This document shows, piece after piece, positions 25,978 through 40,103 of a stretch of DNA of 64,000 nt (its first letter is position 1; every line of letters starts with the position of its first letter). The translations under genes and the position numbers were made by a program. The notes under the pieces are model-generated. The model searched no databases, had not been told where the DNA came from, and worked only from the letters and a program-made list of their open reading frames with translations. The stretch is from an uncultured euryarchaeote (lineage in GTDB: Archaea > Thermoplasmatota > Poseidoniia > Poseidoniales > Poseidoniaceae): contig CALBRH010000044.1 of the NCBI GenBank assembly GCA_937899865.1, positions 32,001 through 96,000 of the forward strand. Direction: 5' to 3'.

Positions 25978-26053
25978 TGGCGCCGATTATGGGTTTCGAA
26001 CCCATGACCTTGGGATTAACAGTCCCACGCTCCACCAGCTAAGCTAAATCGGC
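25978..26053 (-). tRNA. tRNA-Asn(GTT) with encoded CCA
   Basis: Reverse complement GCCGATT...TGGGA-CTGTTAA-TCCCA...ATGGG-TTCGAAA-CCCAT-AATCGGC-G-CCA, 76 nt. Confidence 0.96.
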
Positions 26054-26101: not shown

Positions 26102-27424
26102 TTACTCAATAATGGAAATTAGACGATTTTTATGCACAAATGGTTGTGCTGAGGTACTAAGTGAGTTAGTTAATTTATTCAAATCATCTTCAGTCAATGA
26201 CTCATTATGATGAAATTTCAACCATACATCTCCACTATTGATCTGATTTCCTCGCTCAAAACAAATCTCAAAACCTATTTCTGCAATAATCTCATCCTCA
26301 ATTGAAAATCTTCCAGCGCCATGCTTTCGAGCAATATCAGCGAGCATCATCGAATCAATTTCACAAATATACCCGGTATCTTGTGCTTTAATTTCAGTAA
26401 TGTGGGCACTTTGAGTCAAGACATCCTGTGGATTCTCACATAATTTTTGTGCAGTAATTTGGTCAACTCCTTGCTGGATACACATATGTTTGAATTTCTC
26501 AAGAGCCATGCCATTATCAATGACTTGAGAAATTATTTTTTCAGCTTGAACGTGTGATTCTGCCTTACCGGTTCTGGTCAAAAGTTCAGCACATTGTAGA
26601 ATTACAATGTCAAGAGTATCTTTCGAGCCTTTACCTTGCAGTACCATTACACTACCAAGAACTTCTAAACTATTACCAACATATTGTCCGATGGGATAAT
26701 CCATTTGAGTAATCTGAGCAACAGTATTGATTCCAAGACCTTTAGCAGCACCAACCATTGATTCGGCTAGGCCAGTGGCATCTTCCAACGTTTGCATGAA
26801 TGCTGCTTTACCACATTTGACATCAAGGACAAGAGTACCTAAGCCTTCAGCGGCTTTTTTAGAAATTATTGATGCTGTAATAAGCGGTATGCTGTCAATA
26901 GTATCGGTTACATCTCTTATCGCATATAGTAAACCATCAGCAGGAGCAATAGCATCATTTTGTGCGGCAATGCAACAACCTATTGCTTCAACTTGAGTCT
27001 TCATTTGTAGTGGATTTAGTGAGCAATTAAATCCTGGAATAGCCTCTAACTTGTCAATAGTTCCTCCAGTATGCCCTAATCCTCGGCCTGCAAGCATTGG
27101 GACCTTTAGGCCACATGCTGCTAAAATCGGTGCTAACATTAACGACATTTTGTCACCAACTCCACCTGTACTGTGTTTATCAACAACCAGTGCATTATCA
27201 CTCCAATCAATGACTGCGCCAGATAGCATCATACCTTTGGTAAGTTGTGTGGTTTCAGCTACAGAAATACCATTTGAATGGACTGCTTTCAACCATCTCT
27301 CTACTAACTTTATGTCTATACTTCGTTGTGCAACTGCCTGAATAAAATTATCCAATATGGCGCTATCCATTGGATTTGAAGACTGAACTTGTTGTATCAA
27401 CAATTCAACATCGTCAGACTTCAT
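26102..27424 (-). CDS. deoA: Thymidine/pyrimidine-nucleoside phosphorylase, bacterial type
   Basis: VDKHSTGGVGDK, GRGLGHTGGTIDKLE, APADGLLYAIRDVT, SIISKKAAEG and LDVKCGKAAFM motifs; lacks the N-terminal domain of archaeal AMP phosphorylase. Confidence 0.9.
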   Translation of the reverse strand: MKSDDVELLIQQVQSSNPMDSAILDNFIQAVAQRSIDIKLVERWLKAVHSNGISVAETTQLTKGMMLSGAVIDWSDNALVVDKHSTGGVGDKMSLMLAPILAACGLKVPMLAGRGLGHTGGTIDKLEAIPGFNCSLNPLQMKTQVEAIGCCIAAQNDAIAPADGLLYAIRDVTDTIDSIPLITASIISKKAAEGLGTLVLDVKCGKAAFMQTLEDATGLAESMVGAAKGLGINTVAQITQMDYPIGQYVGNSLEVLGSVMVLQGKGSKDTLDIVILQCAELLTRTGKAESHVQAEKIISQVIDNGMALEKFKHMCIQQGVDQITAQKLCENPQDVLTQSAHITEIKAQDTGYICEIDSMMLADIARKHGAGRFSIEDEIIAEIGFEICFERGNQINSGDVWLKFHHNESLTEDDLNKLTNSLSTSAQPFVHKNRLISIIE

Positions 27425-27433
27425 ACTATCAGC

Positions 27434-28408
27434 CTAATCTTCTGCTAACCCAATCTCAACTAATCTTTGATGGAGATAATCTCCAGCACTAATCGATTGA
27501 TAGTCTGCAGTACCACTAGTCATTGCAATGAATTCTGGTCTTGGGGTTAGGTCGATTGTATTTCTTGGATGGACAAACATTGGCATAGAGAATCTGCGTG
27601 CTGATTTTGATGCAGGATTCACTACACGATGAGTAGTTGATTTGAATAAGCCATTGGTTAGGTTTTGTATCATGTCGCCAGAATCAACAATGATGTAACG
27701 CTCATCACCTTCGACTTTTATCCATGTCCCATCATGGTCCATAACTTCCAAGCCATCGGCGGTTGCTGTAACAAGCAATGTGATGAAATTAATATCTTCG
27801 TGGGCTGCTGAGCGAACAGCACCTTCAGGTACATCATCGCCAAGTGGTGGATAATGGATGATTCTCATGATGGTATTACCATCATTGGTCATCTCAACCA
27901 ACCAGTCGCTATCTTTGCCTAAGTATATGCTACATGCAGATAACAAATCACTGGATAAAGTTTCCATCCTATTGTACAGATCATCAATAACTTGCCGAAA
28001 TTGTGGTACAGATTTGTCTGGCCAAACATTGGTAGGATATGAGGGGGTCTCCCCCTCCTTGTGAGTTCTTCCAGTTTGCCAAAATTCTTTCAAATCAGGA
28101 GCAGGGTTATCTTTGGCATGTTCAACTCCAAAAGCGGTATAACCTCTTTGATGAGCGATTTCACGATGAGCATAATTCATTTTTTCACTGGCATCGAGGC
28201 CAAAAAACTCGTCAGCTTTATCGTATGATTGTTGAATCAATTCAATTGGTATGCCATGATTTTTCAAGGCAAAAAAACCGATGTCTTTGAGTGAGTCACC
28301 AACTTCTTCGATGAATTTATGCTTACGTGTTTCATCACCTGAAACATAGTCTGCGAAATCAATCACTGGAATACTTCGACTCATGTTATCAAGGCTTGCT
28401 ATGGCCAA
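27434..28408 (-). CDS. 2-oxoglutarate/Fe(II) dioxygenase, IPNS/DIOX_N family
   Basis: IPVIDF, GFFALKNHGI, AHED (HxD), THRV (distal His) and RFS (RxS) motifs. Confidence 0.9.
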   Translation of the reverse strand: MAIASLDNMSRSIPVIDFADYVSGDETRKHKFIEEVGDSLKDIGFFALKNHGIPIELIQQSYDKADEFFGLDASEKMNYAHREIAHQRGYTAFGVEHAKDNPAPDLKEFWQTGRTHKEGETPSYPTNVWPDKSVPQFRQVIDDLYNRMETLSSDLLSACSIYLGKDSDWLVEMTNDGNTIMRIIHYPPLGDDVPEGAVRSAAHEDINFITLLVTATADGLEVMDHDGTWIKVEGDERYIIVDSGDMIQNLTNGLFKSTTHRVVNPASKSARRFSMPMFVHPRNTIDLTPRPEFIAMTSGTADYQSISAGDYLHQRLVEIGLAED

Positions 28409-28455
28409 TAGCGTATCAAGTCTATGCTTAACTGGTAAGAAAAATGGCGTTTTTC

Positions 28456-29205
28456 TTAGTCACGAATTTTAGCCAGAAGTCTAACCATTTCGATGTAAAT
28501 CCAAATAATCGTTACAAGAACACCAAATGCGCCCCACCATTCAGCATTCTTAGGAGCGTTCCATTTTACTCCCGATTCGATGAATCCAAAATCAGAGATT
28601 AGGCTGAGTGCTGCAATACATAGGATAAATGCAGTTACTCCAATACCAATAGGTCCTGATGAGTGTAGGAATGGAATTTCAAATGGTGTAAAGAAGTAAA
28701 AGAAAATCGAAACCAAATATAACATCATAATTGAGAATACCATGCTACCAATCACTTTGTTAAAAGTTGGTGTAGGACGAATAATTCGTGACGAGTAGAT
28801 AAAAAGCATTCCTCCGGTGATAAATAGAGTTCCAAAGGCTGCTTGAATGATTATGCCGCTGTAAAATGCTTCAAAAATCAAAGATAGAGAGCCAACAAAC
28901 AAACCTTGCATGACTGCGTAAATAGTCATTAGAGCCGCAGGGTTTTCTGGTCTCATAATCATTAGAATTACTGCAACCACTATTCCTCCAAACAGCCCTC
29001 CCCAAGTCATGCCGTTAATTACCCCAGCATTTCCTGCCTCCAAAGCGTCAAGTGCAACGTAAGCAGCGATGAAAGCAACTACCGTAACAACACCCAAAAG
29101 GTAAGCTAACTTACCAATGGTTCCTTGTAGTGTCATTGTGTTTTGACCTTGAATATTTGACCAGAAATTTTGTGTCATTACCGGATTGCTTGTACTATAG
29201 CGCAT
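28456..29205 (-). CDS. Bax inhibitor-1/YccA family membrane protein
   Basis: MRYSTSNP, MTLQGTIGK, YAVMQGLFVGSLS, DFGFIESGV and WWGAFGVLVTIIWIYIEMVRLL motifs; start at ATG 29205. Confidence 0.9.
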   Translation of the reverse strand: MRYSTSNPVMTQNFWSNIQGQNTMTLQGTIGKLAYLLGVVTVVAFIAAYVALDALEAGNAGVINGMTWGGLFGGIVVAVILMIMRPENPAALMTIYAVMQGLFVGSLSLIFEAFYSGIIIQAAFGTLFITGGMLFIYSSRIIRPTPTFNKVIGSMVFSIMMLYLVSIFFYFFTPFEIPFLHSSGPIGIGVTAFILCIAALSLISDFGFIESGVKWNAPKNAEWWGAFGVLVTIIWIYIEMVRLLAKIRD

Positions 29206-29251
29206 CGTTATCGTATGTGCTAAGACAAAGTCCTTTGTCAATCTTGCGATA

Positions 29252-32200
29252 TTATTGGTTATCTTGCAGTTGTTCTTGGTAGTATTCTTGCAGTTGCTCA
29301 ATTGTCCAACCATTGTCAAGATATCTTTGGATTACATCTTCACCCCAGCCAGGGAATTTTGCGAGATCAGCATCACTAATGCCACTGCTTGCTTCACTAG
29401 CCACTTCTCCACCACTGCCGTCTAGGACTGGCATAGACCACTCTTCAGTGTCAACTGCTTCTGAATTTTCCATCAACATCATTTCTTGTTCCTCAATACT
29501 AACCAAATCCTTTGCTTGACTCGCTTTGCTTTCTAATTGTTTTAGGATAAGGAATGCTCCAGCACAGAAGATTGCAGCAACGAGCATAACTATCAGCATA
29601 GAATTTGAGCCTGTATTATCTTTCTCGCCATCACTGGCATCAGCGTTGTCAGATAACTGTTCACTTGAACAACCATCCAAATCAGTCAGTCCACCCACTT
29701 CGGTATCAGGACACAAATCAAATTTGTTTAGAATACCATCTAAATCATCATCTGCATCTGGGTCTACAGTTTGATTATCGTCTGGCTCATCAGTATCTAT
29801 TACTGCAGATAAGTCACAACCATATTTGTCAGTATCTTTGATGCCATCTCCATCCGCATCTTCCAAGTTTAACGCATCAAATATTGCAACATTTTCCACA
29901 CTGGAATTAAGTGCTGTACTTTGAGCCCAAGCTATCTCTACTGAATCAATAGCACAATCACCGTCAGTATCAGCGAGAAGAGGATGACCGCCTTGCTTTT
30001 CTTCATCGGTATTATTCACGCCATCACCATCTGAATCATACATGTCTTCAGTCATTCCGTTTGGCATGATTCGCTTGGTACGGTTTAGGCCGTTTGCAAC
30101 TTCCCATTTATCCGTAAGAGAGTCTTGGTCAGTATCGGTAACATTGTCCAATCTATTCCAATCTACATGCCAAGCATCAAGATAATACTGAGTAATAGCG
30201 GCAGAGTGTATTATGACCCCCATTTCACGATTTCTATTCATTGCAGAACTACCCATATTGATTGAAGATACAAGTACGCTCTCACCATCTACAATTATTC
30301 CTTTATTGTGTAATTTTGAGACATCATCATCTTCACTCATTACGATTGCAGATGCATCTAATCCTTGGGAGCCATTCCATACTTCATTGAATAAATCTAC
30401 AACTTCTTGGTCATCATCGTCCAAATATGCTCCGTTAATTATTAGATGTACTCCAACTCCATTCATTGCCACATCATGAAGAGCAGTAATGATTGGATTT
30501 TCATCTCCCCAACCATATGCCCAGTCAACATCAAGTGTTTGTTGAGATAGTAAGACTTCACTATTTGCTGAACGAATAAAGTCAGTTATTTTGGTGACAC
30601 AATTCTCGGGACAAGTCAATAATTCACCAGAAACACTGGTTTGAATTGCGGCTTGTACTCCGCCACCTCCAATTGTATTCGGTGCGTAAAAATTGTATTG
30701 ATCATAATCACTTAATGACATCATTTCAGACCAATGAATATCTAAATTGAATTGTTGATCAACCATATGTGCAAGTTCTAAGTTGTCAATAATAATACTC
30801 CATTCTACATTGCCTCTAACTCCAGGGGCTGGTACAGAAGAAGACTTCCAATTGCCCGAAGACATCCAAACACTGCTTGAGTCTCGTACTGCAACTTTAC
30901 TGTGAAGATACAAGTATGGCTCATCACTTCCAGTATTGAACTCATAAACAGTAGCACCCGCTTGGATTAAGGTGTAAGCGAAATCATTTTTGTATTGCAA
31001 ATCTGTTTCAGACCAAATGTTACAGTTTATACATCCAGAATCAAGCATTAATTCTACACTAACTCCTCTTTGCAAAGCATCCAATAATGCTTGAACCAAG
31101 TATGCGTCTTGTAATTGATACAATTGAATTTTCAAACTTGTTTGGCTATCATCAATGAATTGTTTCAATTCAAGTAAGCCATTTTGCGGACCGATAATTG
31201 GTACTATAAGTGCCTCGGATTGAGCAAACTCAGATTGTAAGCACAAAGTACCCATGCTACCTGTTATCGACCAATGATGCTTCCAGTCATCTGCTGTATC
31301 AGTGTCAGGTAAGTATGAGCAACCATCACCTCTAACATAGACGAATTCATCATCAGAAACACTGGATGCTGGAATAGAAATTGCCTCACTGCTCCAACCA
31401 TCTTGGCTTGCAGGGCCACTGTCAAAGACAAATGTGTCTGACAAGACGCCATTAGGGTCTTTCAAGGAAATAGCAACTCCAGAATCAGGGATGTATAGGT
31501 TTGAACATCCAATATCATCGAAATTTAGGTAGGTTGTTGCTTCTCCAAGCAGCAGATTTGTGTCTTGAGTAATTATTTCAGCCATACCATCATTATCTGT
31601 AATATCTGAATCCTCAGCGAAAACAATTGTGCTTTGAGGACTGAAGAACATATTGTTGATAATAGTACATTCAACTAAAGTGCCATCATTGATATTGATG
31701 GTCCAACCGTTGAAGAACGCATCATTTTCTCCGATGTTTTTGATTTGAATGAATTCATTGTCATATGGTGAAACTCTTGTAATTATGATGTCTTGAGCAG
31801 TAGCAAAGTCGGTAGCTTGTATGTTGGCGGAACCCGGTGTTGGGTAAGCACCAGAAAACCAATTTACTCCATCTTCAGAAATCCATGACTCGCAAGTATT
31901 TGCTGTAATTCCTTCACCATGTACATTTGATGTTGTGACCATGACGCCATCTGGATTGTACATGTGAATCAAATCTATAGGCATAAGGAATGAGCGTGGT
32001 AGGCTAATAAGAGTATATTCGCCTGGATTTAATAAGGTAGTTTTACTACTATTTGTCGTGACAATGTTTTGATTTATGCTATCTACATCAGCTAATTCAG
32101 TGATGAATAATCGGTTGCTATCGGTATCAATTCGCCACCTTAAGAGGTCAATTGGTGAAGTACCATTATTGAATACCTCTACCCAATCGTTGTAATTATT

Positions 32201-34240
32201 GCCTAATTCATCACACCAGCCAACATATTCGGTTAATATCAAGTCGTTGGAATCAGTGTATGCAGGCCATACAGGATTTATGACTCCTGGGGTAGACCAT
32301 GCAGGTTCAACCCATCCAGTGACTCCTGAAGGATTGGTAGTAGTATATCCTGCATGACTGCTTCCAGGTGCTACTAATGACACATTCTCAGAGGAATGAT
32401 TCCAACTAACCATGTCAACAATTCCTGAATTTGCATCAACTAAAGTGATTATGTCACTAGTTTGTTTCAAGTAAAATGAATTAGTTCCATTCAATACAAT
32501 CAAACCAGTACTTCCTGGCTGAATGATTGCATCGTTTTGAAGAGGGAAATTATAGCCTCCTAAAGTGAAACTCCTACTGTTAGATGCTTTTAATTTCCAT
32601 CCAGTCAAGTCGACAGGAGATGTATCATTATTGTACAACTCAATCCATTCGCCAAGTGGCCAAGATTGGGTATCTGAACCTTCGCCATCTGGTAATATTT
32701 CTGTGAATATAATATCAACAGCAACATATGGTTCACTACCAGGTTCAGGTTCACCTGGAGTCATCCAATTTGATGGGATCCAAGCAGCACCCATATTTTC
32801 GTAATCTCTTACCATTGATACATTATCGCCAAAGAAATTACTATGCCATGCAGCATCAACAATATTACCAGAATTATCCTTCAAAACTAAGTGCTCATAA
32901 TAGTCATATAAATCAAAACTATTTGACATGCCAACCAAGCGTCTTTCACCTGGGTTTACTTCTGTCACTCCTGAGTGGGTTTGGTTGAATACCATGGTTC
33001 CTGGGTCAAAGTACAATAAATCGCCTTTGCCATTAGTTACACTCCACCCCGAAACATCCACCATGCTGGTTCCGTTATTGACAATTTCAATCCATTTTCC
33101 ATCAGGGAAGTTTCCTGAGGTATTGGTAGATGGTAAATATTCAGTGATGAAAATATCTCCTATCTTGGTTGGTAAGTTTTCCATAGTATCGAGATTTGTC
33201 ATATTGATAGTTGGGTGGGCTGAGATATACATTGCATCACTGCCCGAAACCCTAGATAGTGAGAATCCTGGCTCATTTGTAGTCCAATTTACTTCGTCAC
33301 CAATAGAAGCATTTGGCCAGTGTACACGTAATTTCTCAATTGCGTTATTCAACACACCACTGCTTGTAGAGCCATTTATCGCTACTATTCTTGTATCTCC
33401 TGCATTAATCATTAATGAATTAGGGTCGCTTGAATAACCGATTAGGTGATCTTGATCAAACTCAATGATATTACCCGCCGCATCAGATGCATACCAGCCA
33501 GTCATATCGATATTAGTTGAGCCTTGATTGTATACCTCTATCCATTCCCCACCAGGATATGTAGCATTATCATAACTTGGTGAAGCATCAGCCATTACCT
33601 CATTGATGACAATGTCTCCAGCAAAATATTCTGGCCCAACAGGGGTGCCTCCTTGATTGGCCTCTCCAGGGGAAAGAGTTCCGGATTCTACCCAATCTGC
33701 AGCAGGATCACTGGAATCTTCGATTAGTGAGATTCCCTCGGAAGGTGATGAGGTCCAAGTAATAGAATGAACTAGAGTGCCAGTCGGATCTTTTAGATTC
33801 ACCATTCCATTAGAATTTTTCAAACAAAAGCCACATGAACCGCCATCGCCATTTCTTGCCATGACGATATAATCTCCAGCAGCAAGGTCAAGGTTTTGTG
33901 TATTTGTTGGATAGACAACGTGACTGGTGGTCATACTGAGTGGTCTGTTGTAATGATCATCTAAAGTCCAAGTTGAAAGGTCAATCGTAGAAGTTCCAGA
34001 GTTATGTAGTTCAACCCATTCACCACTTGTCCAGTCTGAAGGCCCAACAGCACCCGTTTCTGAGCCAAAGGCATTAACCAAGACTTCAGAAATACAAATA
34101 TCCCCAATACATGCAGATGAGCGACTTGATGTTTCTGAGGCTTCTTGAGTATCCTGCAATGTTTCGTTATCGAGTAAAGGTGCTAAGTAAGAACATAGCA
34201 TAATAGTAATCAAAATTATTGGGTATCTTTTGTCTAGCAT
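29252..34240 (-). CDS. Secreted/membrane-anchored protein with six lamin-tail domains (LTD), a two-HKD phospholipase D-family domain, TSP3-like repeats, TM and Trp-containing tail
   Basis: Six I-(S/N/T)-E/R...E/K/D-W/F-(I/V)-E/Q-x-x-N units; HSKVAVRD...SSGNW (H1113) and HNKGIIVD...SSIN (H1311); DTDQDSLTD-type repeats; C-terminal TM. Confidence 0.9.
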   Translation of the reverse strand: MLDKRYPIILITIMLCSYLAPLLDNETLQDTQEASETSSRSSACIGDICISEVLVNAFGSETGAVGPSDWTSGEWVELHNSGTSTIDLSTWTLDDHYNRPLSMTTSHVVYPTNTQNLDLAAGDYIVMARNGDGGSCGFCLKNSNGMVNLKDPTGTLVHSITWTSSPSEGISLIEDSSDPAADWVESGTLSPGEANQGGTPVGPEYFAGDIVINEVMADASPSYDNATYPGGEWIEVYNQGSTNIDMTGWYASDAAGNIIEFDQDHLIGYSSDPNSLMINAGDTRIVAINGSTSSGVLNNAIEKLRVHWPNASIGDEVNWTTNEPGFSLSRVSGSDAMYISAHPTINMTNLDTMENLPTKIGDIFITEYLPSTNTSGNFPDGKWIEIVNNGTSMVDVSGWSVTNGKGDLLYFDPGTMVFNQTHSGVTEVNPGERRLVGMSNSFDLYDYYEHLVLKDNSGNIVDAAWHSNFFGDNVSMVRDYENMGAAWIPSNWMTPGEPEPGSEPYVAVDIIFTEILPDGEGSDTQSWPLGEWIELYNNDTSPVDLTGWKLKASNSRSFTLGGYNFPLQNDAIIQPGSTGLIVLNGTNSFYLKQTSDIITLVDANSGIVDMVSWNHSSENVSLVAPGSSHAGYTTTNPSGVTGWVEPAWSTPGVINPVWPAYTDSNDLILTEYVGWCDELGNNYNDWVEVFNNGTSPIDLLRWRIDTDSNRLFITELADVDSINQNIVTTNSSKTTLLNPGEYTLISLPRSFLMPIDLIHMYNPDGVMVTTSNVHGEGITANTCESWISEDGVNWFSGAYPTPGSANIQATDFATAQDIIITRVSPYDNEFIQIKNIGENDAFFNGWTININDGTLVECTIINNMFFSPQSTIVFAEDSDITDNDGMAEIITQDTNLLLGEATTYLNFDDIGCSNLYIPDSGVAISLKDPNGVLSDTFVFDSGPASQDGWSSEAISIPASSVSDDEFVYVRGDGCSYLPDTDTADDWKHHWSITGSMGTLCLQSEFAQSEALIVPIIGPQNGLLELKQFIDDSQTSLKIQLYQLQDAYLVQALLDALQRGVSVELMLDSGCINCNIWSETDLQYKNDFAYTLIQAGATVYEFNTGSDEPYLYLHSKVAVRDSSSVWMSSGNWKSSSVPAPGVRGNVEWSIIIDNLELAHMVDQQFNLDIHWSEMMSLSDYDQYNFYAPNTIGGGGVQAAIQTSVSGELLTCPENCVTKITDFIRSANSEVLLSQQTLDVDWAYGWGDENPIITALHDVAMNGVGVHLIINGAYLDDDDQEVVDLFNEVWNGSQGLDASAIVMSEDDDVSKLHNKGIIVDGESVLVSSINMGSSAMNRNREMGVIIHSAAITQYYLDAWHVDWNRLDNVTDTDQDSLTDKWEVANGLNRTKRIMPNGMTEDMYDSDGDGVNNTDEEKQGGHPLLADTDGDCAIDSVEIAWAQSTALNSSVENVAIFDALNLEDADGDGIKDTDKYGCDLSAVIDTDEPDDNQTVDPDADDDLDGILNKFDLCPDTEVGGLTDLDGCSSEQLSDNADASDGEKDNTGSNSMLIVMLVAAIFCAGAFLILKQLESKASQAKDLVSIEEQEMMLMENSEAVDTEEWSMPVLDGSGGEVASEASSGISDADLAKFPGWGEDVIQRYLDNGWTIEQLQEYYQEQLQDNQ

Positions 34241-34292
34241 TCTATCCTCTCCATGTGTCTCGGGTATTGTTTGTCATATCTTACTTTTGATT

Positions 34293-35795
34293 TCACAAGA
34301 AGCCAAAGGCATCTTGAGCTTGTGAGAATGTGTAAATCATAATTGGCACAATGATAATTCCCATACCGTGACTCCTTCTAATTCCGACTCTTGGTGGAAT
34401 TAGACCAAGTATTGTACCGATTATCAGTACTCCAATGCCAATGAATCCAGTAGTAAACCAGACCAATGCACTGACGAAAATGATTACCCCCATGACCATT
34501 TGTTGTAGTGGTATTGCTGCGTGTAATTTTAGCATACCTTTCCCAACAACACGCATAATTGGCATGGCCATCAAACCTGCAGCAACGGTAATGGAAATCA
34601 ATCTAATGAAGTCCGCAGTTGGTTCTGTTGATGACCAAGTATCGATTGGATACATCATTTTCAAGGCAAGCGTTGCACCGGAACGAGATCTACCAATAAT
34701 ATACAAGAATCCCAATACCATTACAGTAACAGCAGTATTTACTGCAGATAAGATTGCAATAACTTCCAAATCTTGTTTGGTTTGTGGACCCTCTACTCCT
34801 CCTTCAGCCTCTGAAAGCGCAATTTCTAACAGTTCATCATCGGTTAATTCAGTTAACCTCCTGGTTTCCCAATCCATTCCATAACCCTCTTTGCCTTGCA
34901 CCTTTGCTGCAACATTTCTTCCACCCATTACAAGTACAGTTGCTTGAGATGCAGTCATTCCAGGTAATACTCCCATGGATGCTCCGGCAACACCAGACCA
35001 GAAACATGGGACGATTAACGGCTTAGCAGGAGGTAAAGTCCAGTCTTCGTTTTGTGGCGGTATATGTGAAGTTGTAGCATAAATATCCAAAAGGTTAGCT
35101 ATACCGAATAGACCAGCAAGGCTCGGTAGTAAGAGACTAGCATCTGGAATTCCTACCGGCGACCTTGCAGGTAGGCTAAATACAGCCCAACCATAGAAAC
35201 CAGATAATAAAAAGAATCCAGTTGCTGCAAGGAATCCAGCAAATCGACTATCAGTAGCCAACTTATTCATTGAAAGTTTTTGCATCCACTTTGGCCAATC
35301 CAATCTCGTTGTTTCAGTTGCAAGTAGTAAGAAAGAGATACCAAGTAATAAAAAGAAAATTATGTTTCTCAAGTAATCATACCATCCCAATTCATCACCA
35401 AAAGCAATTCTTGCAACTATTATTAGTGGTAGGGAAAGGAATAATCCGAGTTGTGAACCTCTTGCTGACCAAGCCACTCCACGTGGTGCATTACCTGATA
35501 GTAACATTCTGTGACCTGGCAATAATGAAAGCGCAGTATCCCCATCTGGAGCACCTAACAAAGCAGATGGAATATAATTGAGAAAAGTATGCACAGTGCC
35601 GGTTGAAACAATAATTGCAGCAACAGCAGATAATGGAATCCCCCAACTTAGGAATACAGGCGATAACGCTAGAAGAATTAAAGCAACATTATTGACGTGG
35701 AAACCAGGAATTAGCCCAGTTAATGAGCCCATTGCTACGCCAAAGAATAAGGCGAACAACAACCATCCAAGGTCAATAAAGTATGCTTCAAACAT
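34293..35795 (-). CDS. TctA/DUF112 family membrane protein, archaeal type
   Basis: GSLTGLIPGFHVN, HTFLNYIPSALLGAPD, LPGHRML..G and GVLPGMTAS motifs; about 12 TMs; no TctB/TctC in the window. Confidence 0.85.
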   Translation of the reverse strand: MFEAYFIDLGWLLFALFFGVAMGSLTGLIPGFHVNNVALILLALSPVFLSWGIPLSAVAAIIVSTGTVHTFLNYIPSALLGAPDGDTALSLLPGHRMLLSGNAPRGVAWSARGSQLGLFLSLPLIIVARIAFGDELGWYDYLRNIIFFLLLGISFLLLATETTRLDWPKWMQKLSMNKLATDSRFAGFLAATGFFLLSGFYGWAVFSLPARSPVGIPDASLLLPSLAGLFGIANLLDIYATTSHIPPQNEDWTLPPAKPLIVPCFWSGVAGASMGVLPGMTASQATVLVMGGRNVAAKVQGKEGYGMDWETRRLTELTDDELLEIALSEAEGGVEGPQTKQDLEVIAILSAVNTAVTVMVLGFLYIIGRSRSGATLALKMMYPIDTWSSTEPTADFIRLISITVAAGLMAMPIMRVVGKGMLKLHAAIPLQQMVMGVIIFVSALVWFTTGFIGIGVLIIGTILGLIPPRVGIRRSHGMGIIIVPIMIYTFSQAQDAFGFL

Positions 35796-35804
35796 GGTTA
35801 TTCC

Positions 35805-37565
35805 TCAGTAGTCGGGATATGTGTCGTTGTCATCTCTGTCGTTTTCACCATCACCATCAGTATCAGGATTGTATGGATTTGTCCCATACAATGATTCTAA
35901 GTTGTCAGATAATCCATCGCCATCGGTATCGATGACATCTGCATTGATTAGATGATATACAGTTGCTACAAGTTCAGGGTCTGCAACTTCCATTAGTCTA
36001 CCGTTCCATGTATGGGAATAGCCTGAATGGACATTGTCAGTTCCAATGATGGTATTGTTATTTGGTGATAGCCTAATACTTTGATTAGTTCCATCTCTTT
36101 GTAACCACCATTCTCCATCTTCATCTTGTACAGCAATACCTGGAATATTTACCATTTGACTTCGAGAATATCCCCATTGTGATGCACCTTCATCCCAAAT
36201 CAAATTCTTAGCGTCTGGTGCTTCTCCTAATTGATAATCATGAATTAGTAGTCTGATTGCCATATTTATGTCATCCCAAGTTACCGAAACATTAGCCGTG
36301 ATTGCTTGTCCAGCTTCTATCCATTGAGTTGAAGTTTGAGCAGGGAATGTGGCGTAGATTTTTGTCTGTCCACGATAATCAATTTTGTCAACTAACCATC
36401 CACTGACATCTTGTACACTGGGCTCTATTGAATATCTAACAAATGCATTGATTGTATAATGTGTATCTGGGTCATCAATCAATCTAATAGGGTCTCCAGA
36501 TAACAATGCAAGTAAATCGATAATGTCTTCAGAATTAATCAAATTTCCAGTTGGAGTTCCTTCACTTGAATCAACACACCAACTCGCATCGGCTTCAGAC
36601 CACATAAGTCTTCCTTGAACATCTCTAAATTGATTGTGAAGTGAACTATTAGCGTGTTCATTAAGGTCAGCCTCACTTGGTTTCAAACAGATCATGATGC
36701 CTCCAGGTCCTCGTAATTGCCATTGCTCTCCAACAGTGATATAGCCTGCAATTTCAATCAAGTTACCAGATTGATAACTCCATGTTGATTCTTCGCCCCA
36801 GTTCAGCCTAATTATTTCAATTGGATGATTTCTATCAACCAGAATTTCAGGTCCTTGGACAGACATAACCCAATTCATATCACGTTGATTGTAAGAAATA
36901 GTTCCAGTAACTTGAACTTTTGATGATGATTCAATCCAACTGCCAACTTTTGACCTAATATTGAGTTTGATTTGATGCTCTGCATTACCATAGGATGGAT
37001 GATCTCGCAAATCAGCAGAAACAAACATTTCATCAGGTGGAATTGATTCACCGATGTATCCAGTTAATGTGATAATTTCGTCAACATACTTTTCTGGGTC
37101 TAATGCTACATCGAGGATTGCTAATTGGACAATGTCTGGCAAATCCTCTTCATCCCATTCCATCGCTCCTGAGCCAATTGCAGTCATGTAGATATTTCCT
37201 TCAAATTCCATTACTTTACCTGTGATTACAACATTAGTCCCGATTGGTGGTATTTCTGCTGGCCGACTCCATCTTGCTTCAACAACAGCAGTTCCATCGC
37301 TGACAATTACGTGAGTTTCCCAGTCACCGGAATTCCATGGGTCTTCACGCCAAGAGATTATCTCTCCTTCAACTTTAACAACTTCATTTTTGTATTCAAT
37401 CAAATCTTCCATTTCGACGATATCAGGTTCCCTAACCATGGCATAATAATTTAGCACTGCGACCAAGAAAATAGCTAGAGTAAACATGACCCAAAGCTGT
37501 TGACCCCTTGTTGCTGGGTCGTCATCTGTAATTTTGTTCATAATGCTCTTTAGCACATCCGCCAT
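35805..37565 (-). CDS. Membrane-anchored protein with about five OB-fold-like repeats and a C-terminal Ca-binding DxDxDG repeat
   Basis: N-terminal TM. VVKVEGEI...VSDGT...PIGTNVVITGKVMEFEG is a classic OB pattern, with similar units repeated. Ends DTDGDGLSD...DTDGDGEND. Confidence 0.7.
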   Translation of the reverse strand: MADVLKSIMNKITDDDPATRGQQLWVMFTLAIFLVAVLNYYAMVREPDIVEMEDLIEYKNEVVKVEGEIISWREDPWNSGDWETHVIVSDGTAVVEARWSRPAEIPPIGTNVVITGKVMEFEGNIYMTAIGSGAMEWDEEDLPDIVQLAILDVALDPEKYVDEIITLTGYIGESIPPDEMFVSADLRDHPSYGNAEHQIKLNIRSKVGSWIESSSKVQVTGTISYNQRDMNWVMSVQGPEILVDRNHPIEIIRLNWGEESTWSYQSGNLIEIAGYITVGEQWQLRGPGGIMICLKPSEADLNEHANSSLHNQFRDVQGRLMWSEADASWCVDSSEGTPTGNLINSEDIIDLLALLSGDPIRLIDDPDTHYTINAFVRYSIEPSVQDVSGWLVDKIDYRGQTKIYATFPAQTSTQWIEAGQAITANVSVTWDDINMAIRLLIHDYQLGEAPDAKNLIWDEGASQWGYSRSQMVNIPGIAVQDEDGEWWLQRDGTNQSIRLSPNNNTIIGTDNVHSGYSHTWNGRLMEVADPELVATVYHLINADVIDTDGDGLSDNLESLYGTNPYNPDTDGDGENDRDDNDTYPDY

Positions 37566-37576
37566 GATTATTGGTG

Positions 37577-37620
37577 TTCAAACAGTCATTTAGTCATGTT
37601 TGAAGGATTAGTCATATCTT
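37577..37620. promoter_or_regulatory. Candidate operator in the divergent OB-fold/HD promoter region
   Basis: TTCAAACA-N12-TGTTTGAA (37577-37604), three AGTCAT copies, GTCATATCTT at 37611-37620 and a TTTTTAAA TATA-like box just downstream. Confidence 0.45.
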
Positions 37621-37665
37621 GCGCGGCCTTTTTAAACATTAAATCGAGGGAGTATCGGGGATGGA

Positions 37666-38961
37666 ATGAGAGAGAGGGTGATTCGCGACGAGATTCACAA
37701 GGATATTCTTGTGCCTTTCCAACATGCTAGAATCATAGATACTAAGGAATTCCAAAGGCTTCGCTCAATTCAGCAATTATCTACTTGCGAATATGTTTTT
37801 CCTGCTGCTAATCACAATAGATTTTCTCACTCCTTAGGAGCATATCATCTGGCGTGTAAACTGACTCAACTAATTCAAGAAGTACAGCCAGGAATAATCG
37901 ATGACGACGATGCAGAATTAGTCCAACTTGCTGCATTGTTGCACGATATTGGCCATCCACCATATTCTCATTTATTGGAGACTCCAAAAGTGTTTGCAAC
38001 TTTCCATTCTCATGAGCATTGGGGCAGATTACTTCTTGAATCGGAGGAAACAGAAATTGGTAGAGTCGTTAAGGATATATTGGGAAGTAAACGTCTTGGG
38101 CGTTTATTTGCAATAATGGATGGAGATTCAGATTATGATGGTGCAGCAATACCTCCTTTCATGAAAGAAATAGTCTCTTCACAACTTGATGTAGACCGTA
38201 TGGATTATCTGGTTAGGGACCAAGCAAATACTGGTGCACAGATTGGTGGATTTGATATTGACCGAGTATTTAGGGCACTTCGAATTGGCGATGGTGGTCA
38301 TTTTCATGTTAAGGCTTGGGGGCTTCCAGCGGTTGAAGCATATTTGGTTACTAGATATCACATGTATAACCAAGTCTATTTCCATAAGGTAAATATGCTC
38401 ACACAAAATTACTTGATCAAAATGTTGTCAAGAGCGAAAGTACTTGCTCAAGAGGGCGATTTGCTGCTTGATGACAAATTAGAACATATGTTGCTTAATG
38501 AATCACTAAGTCCTTCCCAATATGCAGAATTAAATGATTCACACATTAAGGTAGTACTTGATGACTGGTCTAAGCATGATGATGAATTACTTTCGCTATA
38601 TGCTGGAAAATTACTTTCCCGAAGAGATTTTCACAAATCCCTTAGAATTGATACTCTTGACATAAATATGGTTGATTTAGTTAAGGAGAGACTTGAGAAA
38701 TTTATTCGAGACAAAGGCTATGATCCTGAAATTCATGTATTGTATGCTCGTATTTCCAAACGTGGTTACATGCCCTATAAGCAAGGAATTATGTTGGAAG
38801 ACGGTAGAGATGCATCAGAGCATTCAGCAATGATTCGTTCACTTTCATTACCTAATGAAAGAGCCATGGTATTCGTTCCTGAAGCAGTACGCGATGAAGC
38901 GGAATTAGCGGTTAGAGAATGGATTAAGCCAAGCCAGTCATCGCTTTCACAATTTGGTTAG
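37666..38961 (+). CDS. HD-domain phosphohydrolase, SAMHD1/dNTPase-like
   Basis: FQRLRSIQQL, HNRFSHSLG, ALLHDIGHPPYSH, LDVDRMDYLVRD and RYHMYNQVYFH motifs. Confidence 0.9.
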   Translation: MRERVIRDEIHKDILVPFQHARIIDTKEFQRLRSIQQLSTCEYVFPAANHNRFSHSLGAYHLACKLTQLIQEVQPGIIDDDDAELVQLAALLHDIGHPPYSHLLETPKVFATFHSHEHWGRLLLESEETEIGRVVKDILGSKRLGRLFAIMDGDSDYDGAAIPPFMKEIVSSQLDVDRMDYLVRDQANTGAQIGGFDIDRVFRALRIGDGGHFHVKAWGLPAVEAYLVTRYHMYNQVYFHKVNMLTQNYLIKMLSRAKVLAQEGDLLLDDKLEHMLLNESLSPSQYAELNDSHIKVVLDDWSKHDDELLSLYAGKLLSRRDFHKSLRIDTLDINMVDLVKERLEKFIRDKGYDPEIHVLYARISKRGYMPYKQGIMLEDGRDASEHSAMIRSLSLPNERAMVFVPEAVRDEAELAVREWIKPSQSSLSQFG

Positions 38962-39078: not shown

Positions 39079-39167
39079 AATTGAATCTTTATTTTGTCAG
39101 AATTATTGGCCATATTCCCACAATGGTTATGAGTGTCACACAACTGGGAGTGATAATAGGTGAGACT

Positions 39168-40103
39168 GTGTCAACTGTAAAGCGCGCTTCATTTCTCTTG
39201 ACTTTGTATATATTTTCGATGCTAGCGGTAGCGGCTCCTGCTGCTGCTCAAAACCCAACTCCAACTGCGGCTATTTCCGTTACTTGTGCCCCTTCTAACA
39301 TCAATGTAGAAGTAAAACCAGGTTCAACATACTCAGGTTTTACAACATGTACTGCTACCAATCCAACTGCTTACCAAGAAAAGGTTAGTATCAACGTACA
39401 AGCCGATGGTTTGGCAACTGCAGCACCAGGTGACATGTATGTAGGTGCTGGCGATTCAGTGGATTTCCAAGTATCTGTTAGAGCAACACCTTACATGAGG
39501 ATGGATGCAAGAACCCTTTCAGTTTCAGCTACAGTGCAAGAAATTAATGGTTTCCCACCAGCAAACTCAGCATCTTCTAACAACAACATGATTGTTAACA
39601 TCATGCAATATTCACTTGTCCAAGTTGAAGCAACTGAGCCATTCGTTCAATTGATGCCAAAGACTGACAAAATATTTGAGTTCAAAGTTTACAATCTCGG
39701 CAACCAAATAGATTTCATGAAGGTTGGTGTAACTGATACCTATCGTAAGACACTAGAAGAAACTGGTTTCACAATTACTCTTCCTGCTGTTAAGAAGCAA
39801 GTAGATGCAACACCAACTCCAGCAAGCGTTGAGGTGAAGGTTAGAACACCTAAGACTCAAGGATGGAGCGATGCTTACCACGTACTCGATTTCTATGCTG
39901 AGTCTGAGTTTGCTTGTAACAACGGCGGCTGTATCACAGAATCACAGATGATTACTATTTACGTTAGAGGTATTTATCTGCCAGGTTTTGAAATTATTCC
40001 AGCTCTTTCAATGATCGCTCTTGCAGCAGCAGTTGCCGGTCGCAGATTTATCAACATTGATGATGAAGAAGATGAATGGCGCGAATCAGCACCAGGTCTG
40101 TGA
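39168..40103 (+). CDS. Secreted surface protein (choice-of-anchor T-like) with PGF-type C-terminal sorting segment
   Basis: GTG 39168 preceded by GGTGAG; signal ending AAPAAA; Ig-like strands; LPGFEIIPALSMIALAAAVAGRR followed by an acidic tail. Confidence 0.7.
   Translation: MSTVKRASFLLTLYIFSMLAVAAPAAAQNPTPTAAISVTCAPSNINVEVKPGSTYSGFTTCTATNPTAYQEKVSINVQADGLATAAPGDMYVGAGDSVDFQVSVRATPYMRMDARTLSVSATVQEINGFPPANSASSNNNMIVNIMQYSLVQVEATEPFVQLMPKTDKIFEFKVYNLGNQIDFMKVGVTDTYRKTLEETGFTITLPAVKKQVDATPTPASVEVKVRTPKTQGWSDAYHVLDFYAESEFACNNGGCITESQMITIYVRGIYLPGFEIIPALSMIALAAAVAGRRFINIDDEEDEWRESAPGL

What the first reader, a model, noticed from the sequence alone, without database searches (positions are those of the whole stretch)
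26102..38961. Candidate extracellular DNA/nucleotide scavenging system: OB-fold, TctA-like, LTD-PLD, dioxygenase and thymidine phosphorylase, divergent from a dNTPase
Seen: six co-oriented genes with gaps of only 9-52 nt (multi-OB anchored protein, TctA/DUF112, 6xLTD-PLD, YccA, 2OG dioxygenase, bacterial-type DeoA). They share a ~100-nt divergent promoter region, containing repeats, with a SAMHD1-like HD hydrolase. Known: OB folds bind ssDNA, HKD/PLD enzymes include Nuc-type nucleases, prokaryotic LTDs are often fused to extracellular phosphoesterases, and HD dNTPases and DeoA act on dNTPs and thymidine. Inference: a surface bind-cut-import-catabolise module for dissolved DNA in a marine heterotrophic archaeon, with the orphan TctA-like protein as channel. 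I do not know of such a system being described.
Basis: partly seen in the sequence, partly recalled or inferred. Interest (0 to 1): 0.8.

Follow-up and report, generated by a model that had tools for sequence, protein, structure and literature searches.

The report
Archaeal DNA-uptake operon with tethered nuclease
An abundant ocean archaeon (Marine Group II) keeps in one gene row a surface protein built of DNA-binding-type folds, a transporter of the kind a methanogen needs to take up DNA, a surface-tethered nuclease-like enzyme and a thymidine-cleaving enzyme, so it probably captures, cuts, imports and uses DNA from seawater, although no activity has been tested.

Summary
Six co-oriented genes lie on the minus strand: a membrane-anchored multi-OB protein, a TctA-like permease, a 6xLTD protein with two HKD motifs, BaxI_1, a 2OG dioxygenase and DeoA. 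A SAMHD1/EF1143-like HD gene diverges from them across 100 nt.

The core is OB, TctA, LTD-HKD and DeoA. It keeps its order and strand in all 14 loci fetched from three Poseidoniales families, while both flanks vary. BaxI and the dioxygenase are found only in this genus. The HD gene is a neighbour in only two families. The promoter "repeat" is not conserved.

Outside the order, a TM+OB gene sits directly upstream of an archaeal-type TctA in 61 of 73 Thermoplasmatota loci and 34 of 72 loci from other archaeal phyla. In Methanomassiliicoccales the OB fold is inserted into TctA. In the Methanobacterium phylum the two genes are unlinked, yet missing together.

An adjacent OB-fold/TctA-like pair is published as essential for natural transformation in Methanococcus maripaludis (PMC10133366). 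The HKD domain is closest to Nuc-type nucleases.

My reading is an eDNA capture, cleavage, uptake and salvage module (about 0.55). It is a new variant of a known kind. No activity is shown, and I could not align it directly to the Methanococcus proteins. This scan has already reported the same locus in other MGII genomes.

The parts
35805..37565 (-). Type II membrane-anchored surface protein, 586 aa. One TM helix (aa 26-44), about five OB-fold modules and a C-terminal TSP3-type Ca-binding repeat. Proposed DNA-capture subunit.
   Evidence: AF2 model and Foldseek hits to multi-OB DNA binders. TM prediction. TSP3_bac hit. Its N-terminal part is homologous to the small TM+OB proteins that precede TctA in other archaea.
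34293..35795 (-). Archaeal-type TctA-like (DUF112) permease, 500 aa, at least 10 TM segments. It is the only PF01970 gene in the genome, which has no TctB or TctC. Proposed translocon.
   Evidence: The family is small and mostly archaeal. An adjacent OB-fold/TctA-like pair is essential for transformation in M. maripaludis.
29252..34240 (-). Surface-tethered enzyme, 1662 aa. N-terminal signal/TM, six lamin-tail domains, a two-HKD (PLDc_2) catalytic domain at aa ~981-1423, TSP3-like acidic repeats, a C-terminal TM helix (aa 1548-1566) and a cytoplasmic tail. Proposed nuclease.
   Evidence: HKD motifs at aa 1113 and 1311 are invariant in 15 orthologs. The ortholog profile is nearest to Nuc 1byr (1e-15), Zucchini and NucT, and to DrmC.
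26102..27424 (-). Pyrimidine-nucleoside (thymidine) phosphorylase DeoA, 440 aa. Last gene of the conserved core.
   Evidence: NF004490 at 416 bits. PDB best hit is human TYMP at 2.5e-92. It follows the HKD gene in all 14 loci.
28456..29205 (-). BaxI_1 (YccA-like) membrane protein. Genus-specific insertion between the HKD gene and DeoA. The likely start is ATG 29205; the longest ORF reaches 29319.
   Evidence: It is present only in loci of the window's own genus.
27434..28384 (-). Fe(II)/2OG dioxygenase (DIOX_N + 2OG-FeII_Oxy). Genus-specific. Its closest functionally characterised solved relative is fungal thymine dioxygenase. The likely start is ATG 28384.
37666..38961 (+). HD-domain dNTP triphosphohydrolase-like protein (EF1143/SAMHD1 type). 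Divergent neighbour, not part of the conserved core.
   Evidence: It sits next to the OB gene only in families f1 and f2.
37566..37665 (.). 100-nt divergent intergenic region. It holds an A/T box about 30 nt before the HD start that is conserved across the genus. The 8-nt direct repeat is not conserved.
25978..26053 (-). tRNA-Asn(GUU) directly downstream of DeoA. It marks the 3' boundary of the gene row.

Best explanation
The locus is the Poseidoniales (MGIIa) version of the archaeal OB-fold/TctA-like membrane module. In this order the module is enlarged and joined to a surface nuclease and a nucleoside phosphorylase.

Proposed mechanism:
1. The outward-facing chain of about five OB folds, anchored by one N-terminal helix, binds extracellular DNA. 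This is inferred from the fold and from family genetics.
2. The C-terminally tethered 6xLTD enzyme, with its Nuc-like two-HKD domain, cuts that DNA at the cell surface. This is inferred from homology and intact motifs. In some sister lineages the same protein also carries a PhoX phosphatase domain.
3. The TctA-like permease, which has no TctB or TctC, moves DNA or oligonucleotides across the membrane. This is inferred from the Methanococcus deletion phenotypes.
4. After intracellular breakdown, DeoA phosphorolyses thymidine/deoxyuridine to base plus deoxyribose-1-phosphate. The enzyme assignment is strong; its link to the pathway is inferred from conserved order.

In this genus a thymine-dioxygenase-like enzyme and a BaxI-like membrane protein were inserted, and an HD dNTPase lies alongside. 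These are optional additions.
For: Conservation of the core within the order:
- OB, TctA, HKD enzyme and DeoA keep their order and strand in all 14 loci from 3 families. OB identity falls to ~28-32% and both flanks differ.
- The OB protein was found in 60 of 61 genomes of the order.
- All four genes were not found in the same four genomes of two genera, which are 89-94% complete.

The OB/TctA pair as one module:
- A TM+OB gene lies directly upstream of TctA (gap -43 to +50 nt) in 61/73 Thermoplasmatota loci and in 34/72 loci from other archaeal phyla.
- These OB genes carry PF01336 above cut-off, plus weak hits to the ComEC N-terminal OB domain DUF4131.
- The OB fold is inserted inside TctA in Methanomassiliicoccales.
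- In the Methanobacterium phylum, OB and TctA lie 56 kb to 1 Mb apart. All 4 TctA-negative genomes also lack the OB gene, while 114/117 TctA-positive genomes have it.
- One locus has type IV pilin and prepilin-peptidase genes next to OB-TctA.

Published genetics:
- In-frame deletions of the adjacent MMJJ_13020 (OB, one TM) and MMJJ_13030 (TctA-like) each abolish natural transformation, and both are complemented. A TctA-like homolog is also essential in Methanoculleus thermophilus (PMC10133366).
- An LTD-bearing surface nuclease, Hvo_1477, is needed for growth on eDNA (PMC3929857).

The enzyme:
- The HKD profile is nearest to Nuc (1e-15), Zucchini and NucT. It is much weaker to PLD1 (1.5e-4) and PssA. 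It also hits DrmC.
- Both HKD motifs are invariant.
- Family f3 orthologs add a PhoX domain.

No ComEC Competence domain, TctB, TctC or YdjM was found in the genome.
Against: - No activity, binding or transport has been measured for any of these proteins.
- I could not obtain the M. maripaludis sequences. The link to the experimental pair therefore rests on shared Pfam family, architecture and adjacency, not on a direct alignment.
- The transformation phenotype does not prove that TctA-like is the DNA pore.
- Outside Poseidoniales the OB/TctA pair is never next to an HKD enzyme or DeoA, so the four-gene link rests on one order. That order also keeps some other synteny, such as GuaA nearby in two families.
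- Unrelated genes have been inserted inside the block: a CD36-like ORF, a thiolase, BaxI and the dioxygenase.
- Co-absence of adjacent genes can result from a single deletion.
- HKD enzymes also act on lipids and other phosphodiesters.
Confidence: 0.55

Rival explanations
1. Genetic competence rather than feeding. OB/TctA-like imports DNA for recombination, and the tethered HKD nuclease plays the part of a bacterial entry nuclease (EndA/NucA) that makes single strands. DeoA is merely a neighbour.
For: The only experimental data for this kind of pair concern natural transformation. One locus joins OB-TctA to type IV pilus genes. The genome has four PilB/FlaI-type ATPase genes.
Against: DeoA stays at the end of the block across three families. 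Some orthologs of the HKD enzyme carry a PhoX phosphatase. Both point to nutrient recovery. Uptake for food and uptake for genes are not mutually exclusive.
Confidence: 0.15
2. Order-specific synteny without a common function. On this view there are three independent units: the ancient OB/TctA-like pair, a surface phosphodiesterase and a cytoplasmic nucleoside phosphorylase. They happen to have stayed adjacent in Poseidoniales.
For: - No HKD or DeoA gene lies next to OB-TctA in 145 evaluable loci outside the order.
- Unrelated genes have been inserted between the units.
- There are 52-nt and 46-nt gaps around the HKD gene.
- Some other synteny, such as GuaA, is also kept.
Against: Order and strand are kept in 14/14 loci down to ~30% identity while the genes on either side of the block change. 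The predicted activities form a coherent chain. The parts are also lost together, though one deletion could do that.
Confidence: 0.15
3. Scavenging of phospholipid or other organophosphate. The HKD enzyme cleaves lipid head groups or other phosphodiesters, PhoX releases phosphate, and TctA-like imports a small anionic product, with the OB protein as its binding subunit.
For: - TctA is by family a carboxylate-transporter subunit.
- HKD enzymes include phospholipases.
- Family f3 loci carry a CD36-family (lipid-receptor-like) ORF and f2 a thiolase inside the block, and PhoX is fused in f3.
- MGII are described in the literature as lipid and peptide users (abstract of PMC9723583).
Against: - The HKD profile scores about 10 orders of magnitude better against Nuc-type nucleases than against PLD1 or PssA.
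- LTDs accompany surface nucleases.
- The OB modules resemble nucleic-acid binders, and homologs carry PF01336.
- The genome has no TctB or TctC.
- The only genetic phenotype for this kind of pair concerns DNA.
Confidence: 0.12

Closest known systems
Methanococcus maripaludis JJ MMJJ_13020 (OB-fold, single TM) + MMJJ_13030 (TctA-like), and the TctA-like gene of Methanoculleus thermophilus: natural-transformation genes (Fonseca et al. 2023, PMC10133366)
   Same: An adjacent gene pair made of a single-TM OB-fold protein and a PF01970 TctA-like permease without TctB/TctC. The same architecture occurs across archaeal phyla.
   Different: - Here the OB protein has about five OB folds plus a Ca-binding tail, instead of one or two folds.
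- Here the pair is followed by a tethered HKD nuclease and DeoA.
- The methanogen uses a separate secreted thermonuclease.
Bacterial ComEC (DUF4131 OB fold + Competence channel + metallo-beta-lactamase nuclease)
   Same: The same three functions sit together: an outward OB fold, a polytopic membrane channel and a nuclease. The small archaeal OB partners give weak sub-threshold hits to DUF4131 (E 3e-4 to 1e-3).
   Different: - The channel is unrelated (TctA-like, not the Competence domain; none was found in the genome).
- The nuclease has an HKD fold, not a beta-lactamase fold.
- The three parts are separate genes.
Haloferax volcanii Hvo_1477 (lipobox + thermonuclease + lamin-tail domain), needed for growth on extracellular DNA (Chimileski et al. 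2014, PMC3929857); also bacterial cell-bound nucleases with LTDs
   Same: An archaeal surface-attached enzyme that combines a nuclease domain with a lamin-tail domain and is tied to the use of eDNA as a phosphorus source.
   Different: Hvo_1477 has an SNase fold and one LTD. The window protein has a two-HKD fold and six LTDs, is anchored by a TM helix rather than a lipobox, and Hvo_1477 is not linked to a transporter.
Nuc (Salmonella/IncN plasmid, PDB 1byr), NucT (Helicobacter), Zucchini/MitoPLD, DISARM DrmC: small HKD nucleases
   Same: They share the PLDc_2 fold with the HxK(x)4D motif, and are the best sequence and profile matches.
   Different: Those proteins are single-HKD and act as homodimers. 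Here two HKD halves sit in one chain, fused to LTDs and membrane anchors. The substrate is untested.
Bacterial tripartite tricarboxylate transporter TctABC
   Same: TctA-family membrane protein (PF01970).
   Different: There is no TctB or TctC in the genome. The partner is an OB-fold protein. The archaeal-type family is small and distinct, with 2229 representatives among 1.84 billion proteins.
DNA-degradation loci of Ca. Izemoplasmatales (Wasmund et al. 2021, PMC8289736)
   Same: Extracellular nuclease genes are co-localised with phosphohydrolases and transporters for DNA breakdown products.
   Different: Those loci are bacterial and use ABC transporters and other nuclease folds. They are supported by DNA-SIP, whereas the Poseidoniales locus has no experimental support.

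Membership tests
Archaeal OB-fold/TctA-like DNA-uptake pair (MMJJ_13020/13030 type) | PF01970 TctA-like permease without TctB/TctC | tested here: met
   PF01970 at E 1.6e-42. It is the single copy in the genome. No TctB or TctC was found in the 91%-complete genome.
Archaeal OB-fold/TctA-like DNA-uptake pair (MMJJ_13020/13030 type) | Adjacent, co-oriented gene for an OB-fold protein with a single TM helix | tested here: met
   There is a 9-nt gap, one TM helix and OB folds by AF2/Foldseek. The protein is homologous to the small TM+OB partners of TctA elsewhere.
Archaeal OB-fold/TctA-like DNA-uptake pair (MMJJ_13020/13030 type) | Direct sequence homology to the M. maripaludis proteins | not tested
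   No named Methanococcus sequence could be reached. The link is through the shared family and architecture described in PMC10133366.
Archaeal OB-fold/TctA-like DNA-uptake pair (MMJJ_13020/13030 type) | Required for uptake of external DNA | not testable with these tools
   This needs genetics or heterologous complementation.
Nuc-type HKD (PLD-superfamily) nucleases | HxK(x)4D catalytic motif, two copies forming one active site | tested here: met
   HSKVAVRD at aa 1113 and HNKGIIVD at aa 1311. H, K and D are invariant in 15 orthologs.
Nuc-type HKD (PLD-superfamily) nucleases | Closer to nuclease members than to lipid-acting members | tested here: met
   Profile against PDB: Nuc 1e-15, Zucchini 7.6e-14, NucT 1.3e-10, versus PssA 1.4e-5 and PLD1 1.5e-4. 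NCBIfam and PADLOC give DrmC.
Nuc-type HKD (PLD-superfamily) nucleases | Hydrolysis of DNA/RNA phosphodiester bonds | not testable with these tools
   An enzyme assay is needed.
Tripartite tricarboxylate transporter (TctABC) | TctB and TctC partners | tested here: not met
   PF07331 and PF03401 were not found in the genome, although the control genomes gave hits.
ComEC competence channel | Competence domain PF03772 | tested here: not met
   It was not found in the genome. The resemblance is functional only.
Pyrimidine-nucleoside/thymidine phosphorylase (DeoA/TYMP) | Full-length match to the equivalog models and to solved enzymes | tested here: met
   NF004490 at 416 bits (cut-off 269) and TIGR02644 at 410.6 bits (cut-off 409). 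Human TYMP 2.5e-92 and E. coli DeoA 1e-75.
SAMHD1/EF1143-type dNTP triphosphohydrolase | HD domain plus associated region, homologous to solved dNTPases | tested here: met
   HD + HD_assoc_2. EF1143 2.4e-45 over aa 3-355, and SAMHD1 ~1e-25 for the N-terminal part. All NCBIfam dGTPase models score below cut-off.

The most novel reading that the evidence does not exclude
The OB-fold/TctA-like module is the general archaeal machine for importing DNA, doing the job ComEC does in bacteria. On this reading the two parts are physically one unit: the OB fold is inserted into TctA in Methanomassiliicoccales, and the two genes are lost together where they are unlinked. Poseidoniales, the most abundant planktonic archaea of the surface ocean, would then have turned this machine into a feeding device by adding an enlarged OB array, a tethered HKD nuclease (with PhoX in some lineages) and thymidine phosphorylase. 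That would make them consumers of dissolved DNA.
Probability: 0.4. Interest if true: 0.85.

Novelty: new variant of a known kind. Interest (0 to 1): 0.66.

Why it matters
How archaea move DNA across the membrane is an open question, because they have no ComEC. The only genetic lead is the OB/TctA-like pair of Methanococcus.

This locus shows that pair, enlarged, in a conserved row with a surface nuclease and a nucleoside-cleaving enzyme. The host group is uncultured and makes up a large share of surface-ocean archaea.

If the reading is right, it gives three things:
- independent comparative support for a nucleic-acid role of the pair;
- a concrete gene set for testing whether MGII archaea consume dissolved DNA, a major marine phosphorus and nitrogen pool;
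- soluble ectodomains (the OB array and the HKD domain) that can be assayed without cultivating the organism.

Tried and rejected
1. Reaching the M. maripaludis genes for a direct alignment failed.
- Three scans of genome contigs with TctA alignments returned only Poseidoniaceae, Thermoplasmatota or assorted other archaea.
- One alignment was too divergent to search with.
- A protein search from a Methanobacterium TctA listed only Methanobacterium relatives.
- A sample of 121 genomes from the Methanobacterium phylum gave, in the ten loci I opened, only Methanobacteria-like neighbourhoods with aEF-1beta upstream.

2. Pfam alone does not see OB folds in the window protein. A structure prediction was needed.

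3. I rejected the promoter-repeat idea after comparing 24 relatives.

4. I rejected the HD dNTPase, BaxI and the dioxygenase as core parts, because they are missing from the block in other families.

5. YdjM is a third partner reported by earlier notes in other lineages. It was not found in this genome.

6. Foldseek on the TctA insertion gave only E ~6e-3, although every top hit is an OB fold. I treat the fusion as likely, not proven.

7. Literature searches for MGII together with thymidine phosphorylase, nuclease or TctA found nothing relevant.

Full report
**The observation**

The minus strand of the window carries six co-oriented ORFs between 26102 and 37565, and a divergent ORF at 37666-38961. 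Pfam and NCBIfam confirm six of the seven assignments:
- TctA (PF01970, E 1.6e-42).
- A 1662-aa protein with six lamin-tail domains and two PLDc_2 domains.
- BaxI_1.
- DIOX_N + 2OG-FeII_Oxy.
- Thymidine/pyrimidine-nucleoside phosphorylase (NF004490, 416 bits).
- An HD + HD_assoc_2 protein. Its best solved relatives are the EF1143 dNTPase (2.4e-45) and SAMHD1.

The seventh, the 586-aa "OB" protein, gives only a TSP3 repeat in Pfam and a sub-threshold PF01336 hit.
- An AlphaFold2 model built on 15 orthologs (pLDDT 73) shows one N-terminal helix and about five beta-barrel modules.
- Foldseek returns only multi-OB nucleic-acid binders at the top: p204 HINab-dsDNA at 2.8e-11, then CST, RPA, POT1 and TEBP.
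- A crude hydropathy scan gives one TM helix in this protein, at least ten in TctA, and an N-terminal plus a C-terminal helix in the LTD-HKD protein.

Gene gaps are 9, 52, about 46, 47-71 and 9 nt once likely starts are used. A tRNA-Asn closes the row. A CDP-archaeol synthase in the window and the names of the closest public contigs place the window in MGIIa Poseidoniaceae.

**The promoter region**

The 100-nt spacer holds TTAGTCAT twice and one 8-nt inverted repeat. In 24 related loci only the copy nearer the OB gene is kept, and only in the nearest relatives. The element conserved throughout the genus is an A/T box about 30 nt before the HD start. I therefore do not count the repeats as a feature.

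**What is conserved within the order**

The OB protein was found in 60 of 61 genomes sampled from the order, spanning three families. I fetched 14 neighbourhoods from nine genera.
- All 14 have OB, TctA, the HKD enzyme and DeoA in that order on one strand. OB identity falls to 28-32%.
- The genes on either side of the block differ between genera.
- BaxI and the dioxygenase occur only in the window's genus.
- The HD gene is the divergent neighbour only in families f1 and f2.
- Some f3 genera have a ~920-950-aa ORF with a CD36-family hit between TctA and the HKD gene. The f2 locus has a thiolase there.
- In f3 the HKD protein has two LTDs, and in some genera it also has a PhoX alkaline-phosphatase domain.

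Four genomes of two f3 genera (89-94% complete) lack the OB protein. In these genomes TctA, the HKD catalytic domain and DeoA were also not found, while a positive control had all of them. Because the genes are adjacent, one deletion could explain this. It shows that the block behaves as a unit and that DeoA has no second copy there.

**The OB/TctA pair outside the order**

A profile of the Poseidoniales OB protein finds no full-length relative elsewhere in the phylum. It does hit eight small TM+OB ORFs, and seven of them lie directly upstream of a TctA gene.
- *Thermoplasmatota.* In 80 loci found with a TctA alignment, a TM+OB ORF of 203-550 aa sits immediately upstream on the same strand in 61 of 73 evaluable cases. 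It often overlaps TctA by 4 nt.
- *Other phyla.* In 80 loci from Hydrothermarchaeota, Aenigmatarchaeota, Woese- and Nanoarchaeota, Hadarchaeales, Methanosarcinales, Altiarchaeota and others, the same holds in 34 of 72.
- *Domain content.* These ORFs carry PF01336 above Pfam's cut-off. Three of them give weak hits to DUF4131, the OB domain at the N-terminus of bacterial ComEC.
- *Pilus link.* One locus joins prepilin peptidase and class III signal-peptide (pilin) genes to OB-TctA.
- *Family size.* The archaeal-type TctA family is small, with 2229 representatives at E<=1e-3 among 1.84 billion proteins.

Two further observations tie the two proteins together.
- *Fusion.* In five Methanomassiliicoccales loci there is no separate OB gene. 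Instead TctA carries a ~90-aa insertion between two TM segments that matches my small-OB profile (domain E ~1e-6 to 1e-7) in three of the five. It folds as a small beta-barrel whose top structural neighbours are all OB folds: RPA14 at 1.8 A over 66 columns, then Ten1, AsnRS/AspRS and YgiW. The Foldseek E-value is only ~6e-3.
- *Joint absence where unlinked.* I sampled 121 genomes from the phylum of Methanobacterium sp. MBAC-LM. TctA-like is present in 117. A ~135-aa TM+OB ORF is present at E<=1e-15 in 114. The two genes lie 56 kb to 1 Mb apart. All four TctA-negative genomes lack the OB ORF, whereas 114 of 117 TctA-positive genomes have it. These genomes are related, so this is not a clean statistic. 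It cannot, however, be explained by one deletion of adjacent genes.

**Published function**

Fonseca et al. 2023 (PMC10133366) found transposon hits in MMJJ_13020 and the adjacent MMJJ_13030 of M. maripaludis JJ. MMJJ_13020 is an OB-fold protein with a single TM helix. MMJJ_13030 is TctA-like with 11 TM helices.
- In-frame deletions of either gene abolished natural transformation, and both were complemented.
- Deleting the TctA-like homolog of Methanoculleus thermophilus had the same effect.
- The authors propose a DNA transporter role.

I could not obtain those sequences, so the window pair is assigned to this kind by family, architecture and adjacency rather than by alignment.

Chimileski et al. 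2014 (PMC3929857) showed that Hvo_1477 is needed for growth of Haloferax volcanii on extracellular DNA. This protein is a surface lipoprotein with a thermonuclease domain and a lamin-tail domain. It is a precedent for LTD-bearing surface nucleases in archaeal DNA use.

**The enzymes**

- *HKD enzyme.* Both HKD motifs (aa 1113 and 1311) are intact and invariant in 15 orthologs. A profile of the catalytic region matches Nuc endonuclease best (1e-15). Zucchini (7.6e-14) and NucT (1.3e-10) follow. PssA and PLD1 score 1e-5 to 1e-4. NCBIfam and PADLOC give DrmC. It is the only PLDc_2 gene in the genome.
- *DeoA.* It is a full-length pyrimidine-nucleoside phosphorylase. Its best solved match is human TYMP (2.5e-92), ahead of E. 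coli DeoA at 1e-75.
- *Dioxygenase.* Its best characterised solved relative is fungal thymine dioxygenase (8.5e-35). Two uncharacterised bacterial proteins score higher.
- *Rest of the genome.* It has DeoC-family aldolases and PilB/FlaI-type ATPases. It has no TctB, TctC, ComEC Competence domain or YdjM.

**Interpretation**

Shown:
- the gene content and the OB folds (by prediction);
- order-wide conservation of the four-gene core;
- the pan-archaeal OB/TctA pairing.

Likely but not proven: the OB fold inserted into TctA in Methanomassiliicoccales.

Taken from the literature: the requirement of such a pair for DNA uptake in two methanogens, and of an LTD-nuclease for growth on DNA in a haloarchaeon.

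Inferred:
- the Poseidoniales OB array binds DNA;
- the HKD enzyme cuts it;
- TctA-like carries it in;
- DeoA handles the products.

I give the combined scavenging reading about 0.55. The rivals are competence for genes rather than for food, mere synteny, and lipid or organophosphate scavenging. They are listed with their tests.

**Relation to earlier notes of this scan**

I found the literature link before opening the notes. The notes show that the same MGII locus has already been reported from several other genomes with the same reading. They also report a YdjM-type third partner in other lineages. As far as those summaries show, four points are added here:
- the OB insertion in Methanomassiliicoccales TctA;
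- the joint absence of unlinked OB and TctA genes in the Methanobacterium phylum;
- the joint absence of all four core genes in two Poseidoniales genera;
- the finding that the promoter repeat is not conserved.

Two central MGII papers (PMC6461757, PMC9723583) do not mention these genes.

Noticed in passing
L152:4965-6656, L154:4965-6656, L155:4911-6650, L167, L175 (Methanomassiliicoccales MAGs): The TctA-like protein carries a ~90-aa insertion between two TM segments. It matches the small-OB profile in three of the five loci and folds as an OB-like barrel. These loci have no separate OB gene upstream. This looks like a domain fusion of the two partners.
   Followed up: yes
Genomes G331-G451 (phylum of Methanobacterium sp. 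MBAC-LM): TctA-like and a ~135-aa TM+OB gene are both nearly universal but lie 56 kb to 1 Mb apart. TctA is preceded there by aEF-1beta. The four genomes without TctA also lack the OB gene.
   Followed up: partly
L208:1-5194 (JGI metagenome 3300002481; nearest named relatives are Hydrothermarchaeota): A prepilin peptidase, a class III signal-peptide (pilin) gene, DUF2101, a 125-aa OB gene and TctA-like lie in one co-oriented row. This links the pair to type IV pilus genes.
   Followed up: no
L021:2761-7356 (family f3 ortholog of the LTD-HKD protein): In some sister genera the HKD enzyme has two LTDs plus a PhoX alkaline-phosphatase domain (E 1.4e-28) ahead of the two HKD domains.
   Followed up: partly
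L021:7464-10313, L032:7270-10044 and similar ORFs in L023, L027, L031: A 905-951-aa ORF inserted between TctA and the HKD gene gives a hit above cut-off to the eukaryotic CD36 scavenger-receptor family (E ~3e-9, N-terminal ~100 aa only). Such a hit is unexpected in an archaeon.
   Followed up: no
window 26102-27424 (-): The best solved relative of the thymidine phosphorylase is human TYMP (2.5e-92). It scores ahead of E. coli DeoA, Bacillus/Staphylococcus PyNP and the archaeal AMP-phosphorylase type.
   Followed up: partly
window 27434-28408 (-): The closest functionally characterised solved relative of the 2OG dioxygenase next to DeoA is fungal thymine dioxygenase (5c3p, 8.5e-35). It could oxidise the thymine that DeoA releases. 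It occurs at this place only in the window's genus.
   Followed up: partly
window 39081-40103 (+) and 40199-41500 (+): Two membrane-anchored, probably extracellular proteins without any Pfam family. They are conserved as divergent neighbours of the OB gene in most families of the order, including those that lack the HD gene.
   Followed up: partly
window 25978-26053 (-): A tRNA-Asn(GUU) gene lies 48 nt downstream of the DeoA stop on the same strand.
   Followed up: yes
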